The notes under the pieces: generated by a model | Told to the model about the DNA's origin: nothing | Databases searched by the model: none | Seen by the model: only the letters and a program-made list of their open reading frames with translations | DNA from: the human T2T-CHM13v2.0 reference genome, Homo sapiens | Length of the DNA stretch: 64,000 nt | Strand: one strand, 5' to 3' | NCBI RefSeq assembly: GCF_009914755.1 | Contig: NC_060930.1 | Position numbers and translations under genes: made by a program | Part shown: in pieces, positions 7,540-40,000 of the stretch | Layout: each line of letters starts with the position of its first letter | Position numbering within the stretch: position 1 is the first letter of the stretch

Positions 7540-8260
7540 TCATTTCTAAATATTTCTGGTGGACAAAATCAGGAAAATGGAGATGGTGGAATTAGGACAA
7601 CCAGATAGAAGGCTAAGGCAATAGGCCAGATGAGTGATGGCAATGTGTGATCAAGAAACTGATGATGCCTTGTCGTGGGGAGAAGAGCATGGATTATAAA
7701 TAAGAATCTAGTGCAGAAACAACTAGACATCATGACTGGATATAGATGTTGAATGAGGAGAAAATAGAAATGACTCTGAAGTTTCTTATTTGGGCAATGG
7801 AGTTGATGGCACCATTAACTGAGAGAGAAACAAAAGATGTGTAGTTGATAAGAAGCAGTAGAAATAATTGAGGGATTCCATTTGGGATATTCTAAATTGG
7901 ATGTGTTGTGACCAGGCATGATATGAAAAATATTTTTCCACCAGTCCAGTGTGGGCATTGCCATTAGAATGAATATCAATCAGTTGGAATGGGCAATAGC
8001 CCAAGGGTGCTGCTGTGTGAGAGTGCTTTTGACTCAGTAAAAATGTCCAATAGGGAATCATAACTAAGGGTCTGAAACTCTGGGCAGAATTTGTGTCTAA
8101 AAATTTTGGGGCTCCTGACTTAAGGTGACACTGATGCTCAGGGTGTAGATGGTAGCGTTTACAGAGTATTTGGAGAAGAGGATAAATGATGGAGCCATAG
8201 AGAATATTTATATTTACATGACATACAGAAGAAGTAAAAATAGTCAAGGAGAAATATGCA
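7540..8260 (-). mobile_element. LINE-2 fragment
   Basis: aatgactctgaagtttcttatttgggcaatggagttgatggcaccattaactgaga is antisense L2; explains ORF 7786-8247. Confidence 0.65.
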
Positions 8261-9810: not shown

Positions 9811-10511
9811 AATTCTTGTTATTCTTAGGAGCTCCTGAAAAGAATTGAGCATCTTCAACTAAACAATGGGTGAACCTAGAGAGTTGTTGGAATAATTAAT
9901 TAAACTATACAATTGTGACTGGCCCATAGCAAACTGTAATACAGAGTAACTGTTATTACAACTATTGGTAACATTATTTTTTTATTTTTTATTAGAAAAC
10001 ATAGGAATGGGATATTTTTATGTGAATAAAGTAATTTGTATGTTACCATCTACATGTGGGGGCCATTTGTTAATACAACAGCATCATATATACATGCCTA
10101 AGTGGGACTGATTCAGATTATTAAACAATTTTTAAACAACTTGTAAGGAAAAGGCACAGCTTAATAAAAGGTACGCTAGCTCTGAGCAGCTGGATTGCCA
10201 ACACCAGTTTGTAGCTAGCTCTTTAAAAATCCAACACCAAAGACTAATGTATAAACAATGGAAGAAGTATGGAAGTATATGCATACCATTGTCAATAGTG
10301 GTGCATTATACACATGGGAAGGGAGAGGAGGAGATCATTCTACTAGAACACTGCTCTTGCCTGAATTGCTACAATAAGCATATATTACTTTCTAATTAAA
10401 CTGACTCAAATTAAAAATAATGCTTCTTTAGTACAGTGACTAGCACATAACAGGTGCTCAATATTTGCTAACTGTTATTTTCATTATAGGCAGTCATTAT
10501 TACTGCCTCAA

Positions 10512-11603
10512 GTTCCATAAACTCCAGAAATCTTCACTAACAACATCTCCCCTATCCTTTGGAATGAAACACTGATATGTGCAGCTTATTTACAAAGCAC
10601 TTAATTTCATGGGTGAAGCTTCACTCACCAGGGGGTAGCCTGCATTGAAGTTTTGTTTTGCTCTAAGGGCATAATTTTATTTAAGATGAATTCACATTTT
10701 GTACTTAATTTGTCTCATCTCAAAGCATGAGAAAAATTACAATTACAATTAGTTACAAACAAAATATTGGCAAACAGTTGCAATCAATTTATTCCAAATG
10801 GATAAGAATGTAGGTGCTACAGTTTCTTGATTACATTTGGTCGTAATCATTGATCGATTCATTAATTCAGTAGATATATGTTGAGCATCTGCTACGTACC
10901 AGGTACCGTGCTAGCAACCAGGAATAGAACAGTTAGTTAGAAAGATAAGGCCCTCCCTATCATGGAATAGGAGCTATTCCACTGTCAAACTCGAAATAAG
11001 ATGCACAGTCTTTGCTGTGTCCTGCATGACCTGGCCTAAGCCTGCTCCTCCAACCCCACCTCAGGCCACACTAACCCTCACTCAAAGTGTTCCAGGGACA
11101 TATGGCTTCTGATCTCAGAGCATGCTGTCCATCGTGTCAGGGACACCCACGTCCCAGCTTCTCCCAGACTGTGTCTCCTCACTGTTCAGCCCCCAGGTCT
11201 CTCATGGAAGCCATCTCTGATTTCTGTATTAAAGTAGGCCCCTCTGCTATTCTCTACCATTGCCCCTATTCATTTAATTCCTACCTCCTATCACAGCCTC
11301 TATTTATTTTATGTAGTTATATATTTACAAATATAGATTTACACAGTTTTATTTGAATGTCACCCAGAATGACATAAACTCCACAAACTCCAGAGATGTT
11401 CCATAAGCTCCAGAAATCTTCACTAACAACATCTTCCCTATCCTTTGGAATGAAACACTGATACGTGCAGCTCATTTACAATGCACTTAATTGCACGGTG
11501 AGGCTTCACTCACTACAGGGTTACAGGCATTGAAGTTTTGTTTTGCTCCAAGGGCATAATTTTATTTAAGATAAAGTCACATTTTATACTTAATTTGTTT
11601 CAT
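10512..11603 (+). repeat. direct duplication of a ~205-bp segment (10512-10718 and 11398-11603)
   Basis: both copies read gttccataa(a/g)ctccagaaatcttcactaacaacatc...agggcataattttatttaagat...acttaatttgt; roughly 85-90% identical by eye. Confidence 0.95.
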
Positions 11604-12123
11604 TAAACAAATTGAATTAAAGATAATTAAATAAATACATTTAATGAAGCCTTGTAAGACTGTGGTCAGCTATTATTAACAGGTGATATTATTTGAGAAT
11701 GCCACTATCAAACTTGAAATAAAACCTGCAGTCTCTGTGTGCCCTGCATGACCTGGCCTAAGCCTGCTCCTCCAGCCTGCAGAGGCCCAGAGGGGCCTAA
11801 TTTAATAAAGAAATCAGAGATGGCTTCCATGAGAGACCTGGGGGCTGAAAAGTGAGGAGAAGCAGTCTGGGAAAAGCTGGGATGTGGGTGTCCCTGACAG
11901 GATGGGCAGTAAGCTCCGAGATCAGAAGGAACGTGTCCCTGGAACACTCTGAGCGACAGTTAGTGTGGCCTGGGGTGAGGCTGGAGGAGCAGGCTTAGGC
12001 CAGGTCATGCAGGACATGGTTGAGACTGTGGGTTTCATTTCGAGTTTGATAGTGGTATTCTCAAATAATATCATCTATTGATAATAGCAGACCAGTCTTA
12101 TAAGGCTTCATAAAATATATTTT
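10979..12123. repeat. inverted duplication/triplication of an L2-derived segment: 10979-11246 (+), 11633-11778 (+), 11788-12123 (-)
   Basis: 36-bp perfect inverted match 11743-11778 vs 11978-12013; paralogous ORFs 11087-11356(+) and 11708-11947(-). Confidence 0.95.
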
Positions 12124-12941
12124 AAAACAATTAAGATAACAGAATTCTGTCACATCTAAGAAGGCATATCTAACAATGCTCTAAAATATGTTTATGTACA
12201 TTAGATTTTGGTCTCAAACTATATTTGAGGAAACAAAATGAATACAGAAAGATCAATGGTTTTTTTATAAGGTCAAAATTACCAGCCTCAGCTATATTCT
12301 ATTTATTTTATCTAGGACTTGCTTCACTAAGCCATACTGAAAGGAATATAGTAACCACTTTATTTTTATAAATGCCTTCCTTTAAATTGCAGACTTTATT
12401 TTTGAAATTGCCTCTGGACTATATGAATCACTTGTCTTTTTAATTAAAAAAAAAAACTTTAGTTTTTTAACAGCATTTTATGTCGATTTCCCCAGAACAT
12501 CTGAACATGTCTTTTAAAAATGCCTAATTCTATACTGTTTACTTTATCATTTACTTGGCCATATTCTTTTTTGGTAGCACATCCTGAAACCCAGATTCTT
12601 TCCGTATTTTTAGGTCATACAAATGACTGTGATCAACAAATATTCCCCAAACTGAGTGTAGTTTATTTAGTATTCATTTAGTCATTGAACACAAGCACAT
12701 GCTGTATACAAATCACTAGGTTAAATATTATGAAAGATATCAGACCGGATTCCTGCTCTAAGGATATTCTATTTCATAACAGAGTTTCAGTCTAGTGCTC
12801 AAATGAAATGCAGAGTCCTTTATATGTTACATTAACAAGGGAGAAATAAAGTACTGTAGTTTAGAGACTTCATATATCTAGTGGGAAGTACAAATGTATT
12901 GTTATGAGAACTTACTTATTTAAAAAATTACTTGTATGTTA

Positions 12942-13270
<329 letters not shown>

Positions 13271-17435: not shown

Positions 17436-19479
17436 CCTTCAAACCTAAAATTTTGTATTCAACATATAACATGACGTTAAGTCAATCCCATTTTTATATG
17501 ATCAAATTGGCTATAAATAGCATCTATGTCTAAGTTCAAAACCTTATTAAAACCTTGCCTGCCTACTAATGCTAAGTGCTTGTGTTTTATACCTTTACAC
17601 TCTATACTTTCACTATTATGTTTTTCAAATTTATAACTAGCAGAATCAAACTTACAATTGCTAAAGGAAAGATAATTTAATGGAGAGATTCAGGGGTATA
17701 TCAAGACCTAAAGCTCTCTTTCCTAATTTGTACTTTATTCCTTTCTCTTTGAACGGATATTTTCTCTGCACTACTTATAAAGATGGCAGAAAATGACAAG
17801 CTCGTCCATGAGCCTACATTATCTCCCAGTCATAGTGCCTGTGATCACGTCACTGATGTCTATTGTCTTTGTACAGAGGGACTGTGAAGGTACACACCAG
17901 GGGTTCTTCCTGGCACAACCTCTGTGTAGATAGAGGTGACAAAAACAAGGCAACACAACCTTGGAGATCCATCATGCTGCTGGAGGAGCATTTCTTGGGG
18001 AAAAAAAGGAGTCTTACTGCAAAGATACTTTATACTCTGCCCATTAAAATTGCACTGGATTTGATTAATGATGCAAGTTTCAAATTAAAAATGAAATTAA
18101 TTTGTAGATTTTATAATTGATAGGTAATAACTAATCAGATGTAGTAACTGCTCTATAATCATAAAGTGTGCATATGGAATGACAGATCAATTTTCATCAG
18201 TGTGGTCTTATTGATATTTTAAATTTATTTTGATAAATCTCTAAAGCAATAAAAACATTTTGTCTGAAACATTTCTTAATGACTACTCTGCACAGAATGT
18301 ATAATATGAAGTAACTTAATTACTTTTGAAGAAAGGCAAAGTTCACTTTCATGTAATTTTAGAATAGGGATAAAATAAACTTTTTCATATTAATGAAGAA
18401 CTCCATTACCTGCCCCTAAAATGATTAAACCTTGACATAAGTTTTCAAATTTAGCTTCATTTTAGAATAATAAGAACTAGAAATAAATATATTTATAAAC
18501 TAGATGATAACTATATGCAGCAAGGTTTCTTTGAATACAGTATCAAAATTCCTGGTTATAGAAAGCAAGCCAGCTAAAATTCAAAAGGAATGCAAAAGCC
18601 ATAAAATAAAATAGCCATTTAAAATATTTAATGAAGTGTGAACAAAGCTCATGTGCTTTAAATTGCTGTCCCTTTCATTAATTTCTTCTCTAAAGCCTAA
18701 ACAATTAAGCTGAAATGTTAGAAATCATCACAAAATTTAAATAGCACTTTGGGGAATGATGTGTTTTGAAGGAGGTGTTATTGCATAAGAACTGCAAACA
18801 TGAAAATAATTTTATCTCATCACAGCAAGTTAGATGCGTGTTCTATATAGAATGGTAAAAAGAGAAAAAGGAAATGTTAATGCAATTACAGGCAACAGGA
18901 ACCATTACAAATATGCATGTTCTTATAAGAGAAGCTGGCTAATACAGGCTCCTATTTTAGAATCTCAGAGTTTTTAAAATGCTAAATGAAGTTGATAGGA
19001 AAACAAAATAGGTACAACATATCCAGGTGACTTTTTTAAACCTATCTCTGTGGTTACTACTGTGCCACTCTATTCTAGAGAAAAACAAGTAAATTAGCTT
19101 GCTCTTCTTAAAAACTTTTAATGGTGGAATAATATAAAAATGTATAAAAATTGAAGGAAGTTGTCCAGCATGAACAAATGCTGGACATTTGTTCATGTCC
19201 AGCATTGCCAGTAAAAAATATTGGCATCTAAAATGTTTAATGATTACTGGCAAAGATTAGAGAAGCTTCTCTCAGGATGGGATCTGTGGGTCTCCTGCCA
19301 CTGCCTTCTCCCTTTCAATATGGTATTATGCTTAGAATGTTTCTCAGCACTTTATTATTTAGGAACATTTACCTACTTTATGTGGATTTTCAATATTTTT
19401 GTTTCTAAAATTTAGAATATTATTGTAATCAGCCTCAGTGGTCGACTCACTTATTTACTGCTCTCCTGGACATGTGCAT

Positions 19480-19792
19480 GGGTGGCTGTCCCCTCCACTC
19501 TTCAGTTTCCTGTTTCCTTTGTTCAGAAGGAGCTTTCCTGGTGCCTTCATCTAGAGCAGCGCTAGAGCAGCACTGTTTCTCGCGCCTCTTCCTTGTGCTG
19601 TGCTATTATTCCTTATGTTGCTCATCACTACTTTAGCTGAGTTGTGAATCTGTTTGTTTATGGCATGTCTCCTCCATTAGAATGTAAACTCCAAGAGAAC
19701 AGGGAACTTTAATCTCTTTCCCACTCCCTGTTCAATATTTAGAATAATGCCTAGTAAGTTGTTGTTGCTCAATAAATCTTTGCTGAATAAAA
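19480..19792 (+). mobile_element. LINE-2 3' end
   Basis: ccattagaatgtaaactccaagagaacaggga...gctcaataaatctttgctgaataaa. Confidence 0.75.
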
Positions 19793-19849
19793 GGCTAAAT
19801 AAGTAAATCCATATCATCGATTTGAAATTGCACATTTGTCATATGTCTA

Positions 19850-24399: not shown

Positions 24400-24655
24400 A
24401 GAGATCTCTTCATTGTCAGATCTTATGGCTCTTTTCTTGCCTTAGTTCTCCTTAATATTTCTGTAGCACTGGACACCCTTACCTAAACTTTTCCTTCTTG
24501 AAATGCTCTCCTTTTCTATATTTCTTGGTATCCGATTTTAAGTTCCATAGGGCAGTGATCATGACTGTCTTACTCACCACAGTACTTCACAGAATGCCTT
24601 CCTGCTTGCCTGAGTGGATGAATACATGAATGAATGAATGAATGAATGAATGACA
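24400..24655 (+). mobile_element. LINE-2 fragments ending in (TGAA)n
   Basis: ttccatagggcagtgatcatgactgtcttactcacc...(tgaa)6. Confidence 0.65.
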
Positions 24656-25043: not shown

Positions 25044-26646
<1,603 letters not shown>

Positions 26647-29625: not shown

Positions 29626-33470
<3,845 letters not shown>

Positions 33471-33719
33471 ACAATGAGAACACGTGGACACAGGAAGGGG
33501 AACATGACACACTGGGCCCTGTTGTAGGGTGGGGGAAAGGGGGTGGGATAGCATTAGGAGATATACCTAATGTAAATGACGAGTTAATGGGTGCAGCACA
33601 CTAACATGGCACATGTATACATATGTAACAAACCTGCATGTTGTGCACATGTACTCTGAAACTTAAAGTATAATAAAAAAAACTGAAAAAATTATGAAGT
33701 TGAAACTTGAAGGATTAAT

Positions 33720-34030
33720 AACTAGTCATTAAAAACAAATAACAGAAGTGGAGCTTGTGGGAAAAAAAAGCAACCTGGGTATATGTTTTGAGGCATAGAA
33801 GAGAACTTGATGTATGCTGGGACCTAAGAGGACCTGAGAATGCTCAAGGGAATGATGCCACAAGGTAAGGGTGGAGAGATGTACACAGCAAGGTTATAAT
33901 AAAGCTGCTTGGCATTGGTAAAGAATCTAGATTGGATTTGGAATGTGATGTGAAGCCTTTGAGACCTTTAAGCTAGAGAATCACATGACTTAAATTATGT
34001 CTTAGAAAAGACCACTCTGTTATATTTCTG
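33720..34030 (-). mobile_element. LINE-2 fragment (probably continuous with 26890-27530, split by MLT1A and L1 insertions)
   Basis: ggtaaagaatctagattggatttggaatgtgatgtgaagcctttgagacctttaagc...agaaaagaccactctg. Confidence 0.65.
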
Positions 34031-38754: not shown

Positions 38755-40000
38755 GGCATTTGTTTATTTATTTAAAAATATTTCAGAGCATTTATTATGT
38801 ATTGGAAACTGTTCTGGATTCTAGAGATACAGTAGTAAATAAGAAAGATAAATTCTGTTAAGGAAGAGTCATGATAAATAGATGCAGTTTAATTTTCAAA
38901 AATACTTAAGGAGAAAATTTTCAAAATAAAGAGAATAGGGGCAGGGAGTATTGCTGCAACATATTGCAATAATATGTAGGTACCCAAGAAAGGGCTTAAC
39001 TAAGAAAGTGACATTTCAGTAACAACCTGAAAGAATTGTGTGTGAGCCATTCTGGGCAGAAGGACATGCAAGTGCAATATCCACAAAATGGAACTGTGCC
39101 TGGATCACTGGGGAGGCATGTGTGCTTGCAGCAGAATCAAGACCAAAGAGGTTTCAAAGTGGCAGATCTTTATTAGCCAATGGAGGCACTTTGGATTCTG
39201 CTTTGTGTGAAGTAGGGAGACACTTGAAGAGTTTGGCCTGAGAAGTGATATGATCTGAGGTACATTTGAACCATATCACTGTAGCTGCTGGGCTAAACAA
39301 CCCATAAGAGTGCAGGCTAGAAACAAGGATATTACTTGAGGGCTATTGAAGTAATATAGATGAGAGGCAATGACTTTGCTAAGGGTAGTAGCAGCCTAGG
39401 TTTTAAGTATTAGTTGAATTTTAGATATATTTTGGAAGTAGAATTGAAAGGATTTCCTGACAGATAAAATATGGAGTGTAAGGAAAAAGAGTCAAGAATA
39501 ATTAAGTTTTTTTGGTCTCAACAAACATAAAAATGGAGTTTCCATTTACTGAGATGGGGACGACTTTTAAAGAAATGGATTTATGTGTTTGTGTGTGTGT
39601 GTTGGTAGGGGTGGAGGTTGAAATATCAATAGCTTGATTTTAGACAAGATAAATCTGAGGTGCCTATTAGACATCATAGATGGAGTTATAGAATAGGCAT
39701 TTATATACACAAATCTAGAGTTTAGGAAGATGTCTGAGCTGGATAAATATACTGAGAGTTATCAGGATACAGATGTCATTTAAAGCCATGGGCTGGGAAG
39801 ATTACCAAGGATGAGAGTATTGGGAGAAAATAGCAATGATCCCAGGTGTGAGCCGTGGGACATTTCTCCATTTAGAGGCTGGAGAGAAAAACAGGAAACC
39901 CAGAGAGTGTAGTAACCTGGAAGCCAGTGAAGAGTGTCTCAAGGAAGACAGTGAGCAGATTAGGATTGAGATTTGGCCATTTGGTTCAGCAATATAGAAA
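38755..40000 (-). mobile_element. long LINE-2 element
   Basis: starts tttatttatttaaaaatatttcagagcatttattatgt; tctgaggtgcctattagacatc; aggattgagatttggccatttggttcagcaa. Confidence 0.8.

What the first reader, a model, noticed from the sequence alone, without database searches (positions are those of the whole stretch)
10512..12140. Complex template-switch scar: duplication plus inverted triplication with microhomology and stutter junctions
Seen order: A(10512-10718) .. X-Y(10979-11246) .. A'(11398-11603) - AT linker - W-X(11633-11778) - rc(Y)rc(X)rc(W)(11788-12123). cataaactcca just before A' (11373-11383) is identical to the start of A (10516-10526), and is followed by a stutter (caaactccagagatgttccataagctccagaaat). 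The inversion junction reads gcagagg-cc-cagaggggcc, a restart. The linker taaacaaattgaattaaagataa resembles taaaacaattaagataa just beyond the right arm. The copies are about 10-15% diverged, so the event is old. Inference: a fossil FoSTeS/MMBIR event, possibly a breakpoint of a larger ancestral rearrangement. Repeat annotation would show only L2 fragments here.
Basis: partly seen in the sequence, partly recalled or inferred. Interest (0 to 1): 0.72.

Follow-up and report, generated by a model that had tools for sequence, protein, structure and literature searches.

The report
Ancient DNA-repair scar in RIMS1 intron
A 1.6-kb stretch of a human RIMS1 intron holds local duplicated and inverted pieces and a split, partly flipped old repeat element, likely left by one messy repair of a broken chromosome in an early monkey-ape ancestor; it is a neat fossil of a known kind of mutation with no sign of function.

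Summary
The repeats are real and local: four copy pairs at 85-90% identity, with no like copy found elsewhere in the genome. A profile built from 61 other loci shows that one LINE-2-type element (name recalled) is split and half-inverted here. Rejoining it at 10962/11383 lifts the score from 57 to 97 bits, against at most 62 in 250 controls. So the ancestral order was likely A-B-z-y-x-w-C; the LEFT X-Y-Z is the derived inverted piece; net gain 688 bp. Both flanks keep their orientation, so a larger breakpoint is unsupported. Divergences fit one event (p=0.65), about 0.06 per copy, likely on the simian stem. The linker's likeness to the right flank is at chance level (p 0.35-0.46). Best reading (0.5): one double-strand break, both ends lengthened by templated copying and joined by snap-back/microhomology end joining; serial FoSTeS/MMBIR is the rival (0.35). 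It is a small, fixed-looking 'local n-jump', not DUP-TRP/INV-DUP. No evidence of function.

The parts
10512..10718 (+). A, original copy; template of A'
   Evidence: only two copies found in the genome
10846..10967 (-). B end: 3' tail of a LINE-2-type element (name recalled), lying on the minus strand; ends at the inferred break point (about 10962-10966)
   Evidence: profile positions 17-138, 57 bits; join scan
10963..10981 (.). Junction 1 (B to X): perfect 8-bp hairpin, 3-nt loop
   Evidence: shuffle p 0.0013
10976..11246 (-). X-Y, derived copy inverted relative to the inferred ancestor
   Evidence: 87.5% to reverse complement of 11788-12058; profile positions 158-553 on the strand opposite to B
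11247..11383 (-). Z, single-copy piece of the same repeat element, inverted in place; its end is the inferred break point
   Evidence: best join of 234 tested is B 10962 to Z 11383
11373..11397 (+). Junction 2 (Z to A'): 11-bp microhomology with the start of A, then a 14-nt stutter copy of A's start
11398..11603 (+). A', direct copy of A
   Evidence: 20 differences in 206 sites
11592..11645 (.). Junction 3: AT linker 11604-11632 with two hairpins, 11592-11613 (9-bp stem on the end of A') and 11626-11645 (7-bp stem on the start of W); inferred meeting point of two tails
   Evidence: shuffle p 0.006 and 0.025
11633..11778 (-). W-X', inverted (fold-back) copy of the right arm
   Evidence: 86.4% to reverse complement of 11978-12122
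11775..11798 (.). Junction 4 (X' to y): 9-nt insert 11779-11787 with a 6-bp and a 4-bp hairpin and a short direct restart
   Evidence: shuffle p 0.038 for the 6-bp stem
11788..12122 (+). y-x-w, inferred original copy in ancestral orientation, running on into unique flank C
   Evidence: collinear with B and Z in the rejoined element, profile positions to 557

Best explanation
This is a local cluster of duplicated and inverted segments with four junctions, likely made in one germline event when a double-strand break fell inside an old LINE-2-type element and both broken ends were likely lengthened by copying nearby DNA before being joined. Shown: the copies, the junction hairpins, the microhomology and stutter, and that the repeat element is split and half-inverted at one point. 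Inferred: ancestral order A-B-z-y-x-w-C. The left end (B) primed on the right arm, copied X-Y-Z backwards to the break (408 nt), then jumped by 11-bp microhomology to the start of A, restarted twice and copied A' (206 nt). The right end, cut back to Y, folded back on its own X and copied x-w (146 nt). Each tail ended in short snap-back synthesis and the two met in the AT linker, by synthesis-dependent microhomology end joining of the polymerase-theta type. An equivalent route inserts everything at the break with no loss and then flips the inner segment between the new X-Y inverted repeats; the sequence cannot tell these two apart. Age likely on the simian stem; most likely neutral.
For: Rejoined element scores 97 bits as one hit versus 57+18+4 in pieces; 150 window and 100 shuffle controls reach at most 61.7 and 58.3. 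The best of 234 joins puts the end of B and the end of Z at the same ancestral point, sharing 4 bp, so two of four junctions leave from one site. Divergences are homogeneous (p 0.65; non-CpG p 0.77) and private changes in the three X copies are 6, 4, 5. All 3 hairpin centres with stems of 7 bp or more in 10400-12250 sit at junctions; native positions have stems of 4-5. The new arm lies 3' of the native arm on the + strand at the end of A', and on the - strand at W and at J4, as two converging 3' ends would give. Snap-back and loop-out inserts are the defining marks of SD-MMEJ (PMC5728401, passages); 3-30-bp direct or inverted templated inserts in AT-rich flanks mark polymerase theta (PMC7165422, passages).
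Against: No orthologue could be examined. The 146-408-nt copies are far longer than polymerase-theta tracts (rarely over 10 nt per round), so another polymerase must have made them. Hairpin polarity is not decisive: a single strand that lands forward and makes a U-turn leaves the same spacer palindrome, and junctions 1 and 2 have no clear polarity. Junction 2 has no hairpin (p 0.75). Hairpin windows were chosen after seeing them, the null was a mononucleotide shuffle, and J3b and J4 are marginal (0.025, 0.038). About 6% change per copy since the event blurs junction detail, and hairpins can be perfected later. The test of one event has low power (64-206 sites per pair).
Confidence: 0.5

Rival explanations
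1. One nascent strand at a stalled or collapsed fork made four or more serial template switches (FoSTeS/MMBIR): B to reverse X-Y-Z, to forward A', to reverse W-X', back to forward y; the hairpins are U-turns at each switch.
For: Same product and same single age; long templated segments, mixed orientation and low copy gain are what Li et al. ascribe to a copy-and-paste process (PMC7025897, section 10); 11-bp microhomology with repeated restarts at junction 2. The reverse copy ending at the departure point could reflect running into the previous lagging-strand fragment (inference).
Against: Needs extra forward landings at J3b and J4 to put a new arm ahead of sequence not yet copied, whereas snap-back from the other strand gives them directly.
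Confidence: 0.35
2. Several separate events at different times (an inversion or inverted duplication, later a short duplication and a fold-back) piled up in 1 kb.
For: A/A' is nominally younger (K 0.105) than the inverted pairs (0.134); simple local repeats are not rare (7 self-hits of 60 bp or more in 5 of 61 control loci).
Against: That difference is not significant (Fisher p 0.48); X copies are star-like; A' is inserted exactly at the end of Z, the inferred break point.
Confidence: 0.12
3. Independent insertions of a dispersed repeat, an assembly artefact, or the edge of a large rearrangement.
For: X, Y and Z are repeat-derived; the genome search skips very common words; a larger inversion confined to this intron is not formally excluded without orthologues.
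Against: No other copy at like identity; A and W are not hit by the profile; 10-15% divergence rules out an assembly duplication; the flanks are collinear in the rejoined element.
Confidence: 0.03

Closest known systems
Local n-jumps (Li et al. 2020, PMC7025897; passages and section 10 read)
   Same: Single derivative, low-level duplication and triplication, mixed inverted and direct junctions, all templates local.
   Different: Those are somatic, with footprints up to about 1 Mb; this is a germline event of about 0.9 kb ancestral span, tens of millions of years old.
SD-MMEJ / polymerase-theta templated insertions (PMC5728401, PMC7165422; passages read)
   Same: Short junction inserts that form inverted (snap-back) or direct (loop-out) repeats with the flank; AT-rich insert; repeated restarts.
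   Different: Main copied segments here are 146-408 nt, not 3-30 nt; enzyme not testable.
DUP-TRP/INV-DUP (Grochowski et al. 2024, PMC11293582; passages read)
   Same: Copy number along y-x-w is 2-3-2; template switching; microhomology and templated inserts at junctions.
   Different: Four junctions rather than two; two of three X copies inverted; no pre-existing inverted low-copy repeats; sub-kilobase scale.
Short-range template-switch mutations, four-point model (Loytynoja and Goldman 2017, PMC5453318; passages read)
   Same: Local reverse-strand copying that leaves inverted repeats and inverted spacers in the human lineage.
   Different: That model covers one switch-and-return and states that it does not treat multiple rounds; this has at least four switches and includes a direct duplication.
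Complex structural variants in human assemblies (bioRxiv 10.1101/2024.12.19.629504; passages read)
   Same: Structures such as INVDUP-INV-DEL and DUP-TRP-DUP traced through template switches; 128 distinct structures reported.
   Different: Those are polymorphic and large (median about 91 kb); this one is small and old.

Membership tests
Local n-jump (copy-and-paste cluster) | Phased on one chromosome with tightly clustered breakpoints | tested here: met
   four junctions within 1.6 kb of one assembled sequence
Local n-jump (copy-and-paste cluster) | Low-level copy gains with both inverted and direct junctions | tested here: met
   A x2, y x2, x x3, w x2; direct and inverted pairs
Local n-jump (copy-and-paste cluster) | All templates local | tested here: met
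   no distant copy of A, X, Y, Z or W found (lower-bound search)
Local n-jump (copy-and-paste cluster) | Made in a single event | tested here: inconclusive
   homogeneous divergence, p 0.65 and 0.77, but low power; no orthologues
DUP-TRP/INV-DUP | Two template switches, one inverted triplicated copy | tested here: not met
   four junctions; two X copies inverted relative to the inferred ancestor; definition
DUP-TRP/INV-DUP | First switch at pre-existing inverted low-copy repeats | tested here: not met
   the inverted repeats are products of the event; the rejoined model holds each segment once
SD-MMEJ / polymerase-theta end joining | Junction inserts that form direct or inverted repeats with the immediate flank | tested here: met
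   hairpins at J1, J3a, J3b, J4 and stutter at J2
SD-MMEJ / polymerase-theta end joining | Templated inserts of 3-30 bp | tested here: inconclusive
   met for the junction inserts (about 9-29 nt), not for the 146-408-nt segments
SD-MMEJ / polymerase-theta end joining | Dependence on POLQ | not testable with these tools
   fossil event
FoSTeS/MMBIR | Microhomology at switch points | tested here: inconclusive
   11 bp at J2; other junctions carry inserts and have at most a few bases of homology
FoSTeS/MMBIR | One-ended, serial synthesis by one nascent strand | tested here: inconclusive
   hairpin polarity points both ways and converges on J3, but U-turns could mimic this
LINE-2 (substrate of the event) | Match to the curated LINE-2 consensus | not testable with these tools
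   no repeat library on hand; the family name is recalled; what was tested is a match to a profile from 61 dispersed human loci
Dispersed repeat copies at like identity | Other genomic copies at 85-90% identity over the segments | tested here: not met

The most novel reading that the evidence does not exclude
A 40-60-million-year-old germline break whose repair can be read step by step from one genome: the split repeat element supplies the ancestral state, and hairpin polarity shows two long templated tails converging in a polymerase-theta-style join. If such scars can be read this way genome-wide, they would give a dated record of how complex rearrangements were made in primate germlines and a test of two-ended joining against serial fork switching.
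Probability: 0.35. Interest if true: 0.5.

Novelty: new member of a known kind. Interest (0 to 1): 0.3.

Why it matters
The locus itself is probably neutral intron. Its value is as a worked example: complex multi-jump rearrangements, known from disease and cancer genomes, also became part of the normal human genome at sub-kilobase scale, and an ancient repeat can serve as a built-in outgroup for reconstructing them. The 271-bp inverted repeat is predicted to pair in RIMS1 pre-mRNA, but inverted Alu pairs of like identity occur in the same window and no selection on pairing was seen.

Tried and rejected
Linker as a copy of the flank beyond the right arm: chance level. Dispersed-repeat origin: no like copy. 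Left X-Y as the original: B followed by X-Y-Z scores 57 bits, no better than controls. Selection for RNA pairing: inverted arms are not less diverged than the direct pair (40 of 330 versus 20 of 206, p 0.48) and wobble-compatible transitions are 16 of 27 (p 0.44). Known RNA family: one Rfam match at E 0.32, 21 bits against a gathering score of 45, taken as chance. The RNA fold (-597.6 kcal/mol) had no shuffle control and only restates the inverted repeat. Telling a later flip of the inner segment from a direct route: not possible, the profile scores are alike. Pairwise test on 4 loci was mixed: 2 of 4 (L004, L005) aligned along the model, L003 gained only on AT-rich sequence, L006 hardly gained; that model also had a 2-base indexing slip at the join, corrected from then on. 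Orthologues of other mammals are not held by the tools. Earlier scan findings were not available.

Full report
Observation. Self-comparison of 10000-13000 against the 64-kb window gave four significant pairs: A 10512-10718 / A' 11398-11603 (direct, 89.9%), X-Y 10976-11246 / 11788-12058 (inverted, 87.5%), W-X 11633-11778 / 11978-12122 (inverted, 86.4%) and X / X' (direct, 85%). Whole-genome searches with three stretches covering most of the region found only these local copies, plus 4 short matches to the unduplicated end of B. The tool says such counts are lower bounds, but the stated refutation is not met. The supplied annotation places the window in a RIMS1 intron, + strand, with no exon.

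Ancestral state without orthologues. The end of B and X-Y-Z looked like parts of one old repeat on opposite strands (LINE-2; the name is recalled, no call labels it). I collected dispersed copies (30 of 40 listed matches fetched in each) and built a profile from 61 loci, none from this window, with Alus cut out. On the window it hits 10846-10967 on + (positions 17-138, 57 bits) and 11326-11003 on - (positions 158-553, 18 bits). A model in which B is followed by reversed Z and then the right arm gives one hit over positions 17-557 at 97 bits. B followed by 150 random window segments or 100 shuffles reaches at most 61.7 and 58.3; the present order scores 57.2. Of 234 join positions tried, the best are three equivalent ones, B 10962 to Z 11383, with 4 bases (TGGA at 10963-10966, TCCA at 11380-11383) kept on both sides. 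Caveat: training loci were found through B-like tails, and the two follow-up queries were the 2 of 4 loci that fitted my model best, so the B score is partly circular; the position of the join was not selected for. Inferred ancestor: A-B-z-y-x-w-C, 923 bp from A to w against 1611 now, a gain of 688 bp. The right arm is the original and the left X-Y-Z is inverted. Since B and y-x stay collinear, nothing points to a larger breakpoint, although a separate intronic event cannot be excluded without other species.

Age. Differences are 20 of 206 (A), 22 of 191 (Y), 7 of 64 (W), 12 of 80 (X), homogeneous at p 0.65. Pooled K2P is 0.122 (95% bootstrap 0.094-0.157), 0.104 without CpG-like sites; private changes in the three X copies are 6, 4 and 5. 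That is about 0.06 per copy (0.047-0.079), against 2.68% from the ape-Old World monkey ancestor and 4.23% from the ape-New World monkey ancestor to apes (bioRxiv 10.1101/036434, passages and first part of Results read). The event is therefore older than the catarrhine split and likely at or somewhat before the simian split; 40-60 million years is a recalled calibration. Among 7 Alus of the window, non-CpG distances are 0.085-0.14 among the four youngest-looking and 0.23-0.34 for pairs with the two oldest-looking, which fits.

Junctions. J1 (B to X) is a perfect 8-bp hairpin at 10963-10981. J2 (Z to A') has an exact 11-bp match to the start of A, found at 2 places in 64 kb, then a 14-nt partial copy of A's start, then A'. 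The profile consensus aligns through this stretch of Z, so much of the microhomology likely pre-existed. J3 has a 9-bp hairpin on the end of A' (11592-11613) and a 7-bp one on the start of W (11626-11645). J4 has a 6-bp hairpin (11783-11798), a 4-bp one (11775-11786) and a short restart. The window has 11 hairpin centres with stems of 8 bp or more; 2 are these junctions, and all 3 centres of 7 bp or more in 10400-12250 are at junctions. Local shuffle p values are 0.0013, 0.75, 0.006, 0.025 and 0.038 for J1, J2, J3a, J3b, J4; the matching native positions have stems of 4-5. These windows were chosen after the fact.

Mechanism. Two junctions leave from one ancestral point (end of B, end of Z). 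The new hairpin arm follows the native arm on + at J3a and on - at J3b and J4. The simplest reading is a break at B|z with two 3' ends: the left one copied X-Y-Z backwards to the break and then A'; the right one folded back to copy x-w; both ended in snap-back synthesis and met in the linker. Snap-back and loop-out inserts define SD-MMEJ (PMC5728401, passages), and short direct or inverted templated inserts, AT-rich, mark polymerase theta (PMC7165422, passages). The long segments exceed that enzyme's described tracts, so strand invasion or fold-back synthesis by another polymerase is inferred. An alternative route, a clean insertion at the break followed by a flip of the inner segment between the new inverted repeats, gives the same sequence. 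Serial switching by one nascent strand (FoSTeS/MMBIR) also gives it, with extra U-turns. I put these at 0.5 and 0.35, several events at 0.12.

Function. The arms are predicted to pair in pre-mRNA (no control), but they are no better kept than the direct pair (p 0.48), show no wobble bias (16 of 27) and match no Rfam family. One result points the other way: a 32-bp run is invariant in all three X copies (p 0.0004 by shuffling columns, 0.006 without CpG columns, 0.01-0.05 from the per-copy rate; post hoc). Conversion between arms, constraint or chance are all open.

What is known. The structure meets the tested features of local n-jumps (PMC7025897, passages and section 10). It is not DUP-TRP/INV-DUP (PMC11293582, passages) and is beyond the single switch-and-return of the four-point model (PMC5453318, passages). 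Complex variants of this general type are catalogued in human assemblies (bioRxiv 10.1101/2024.12.19.629504, passages). One search named RIMS1: none of the 10 papers listed, of 49 matching three of four terms, contains the gene name. Searches (listings only) showed no title on this locus. That is weak evidence of absence; supplementary lists of microinversions or template switches were not opened and could include it. In 61 control loci (189 kb) there were 7 local self-hits of 60 bp or more in 5 loci, none with both direct and inverted hits in one locus, so simple local repeats are common and this pattern less so.

Verdict. Real, well resolved, a new member of a known kind, probably neutral. 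Interest 0.3.

Noticed in passing
window 11021-11052, 11743-11774, 11982-12013 (approx.): A 32-bp run is identical in all three X copies while the 5' half of X is heavily changed; p 0.0004-0.05 depending on the null. Could be conversion between inverted arms, constraint or chance.
   Followed up: partly
window about 10628-10642 versus 11513-11527: Cluster of 7 mismatches in 15 columns between A and A' (p 0.009); may be a later multi-nucleotide or short template-switch change.
   Followed up: no
window 25072-26619 and 32133-33679: Two L1-like 3' ends (family recalled) in opposite orientation, 94% identical over 1548 bp, 5.5 kb apart; ordinary but the longest inverted repeat in the window.
   Followed up: no
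window 38757-39561, 19472-19808, 33755-34019, 24515-24653, 7579-7823, 10429-10469: Other pieces of the same LINE-2-type family hit by the profile; 10429-10469 is a separate short tail just left of A, on the opposite strand to the split element.
   Followed up: no
L044 519-988; L043 571-1128; L003 496-600 and 2523-2627; L057 1291-1438 and 2880-3024: Local repeats in control loci: a 235-bp tandem pair at 97%, a degenerate tandem array, a 105-bp direct pair at 91% and a 148-bp inverted pair at 88%.
   Followed up: no
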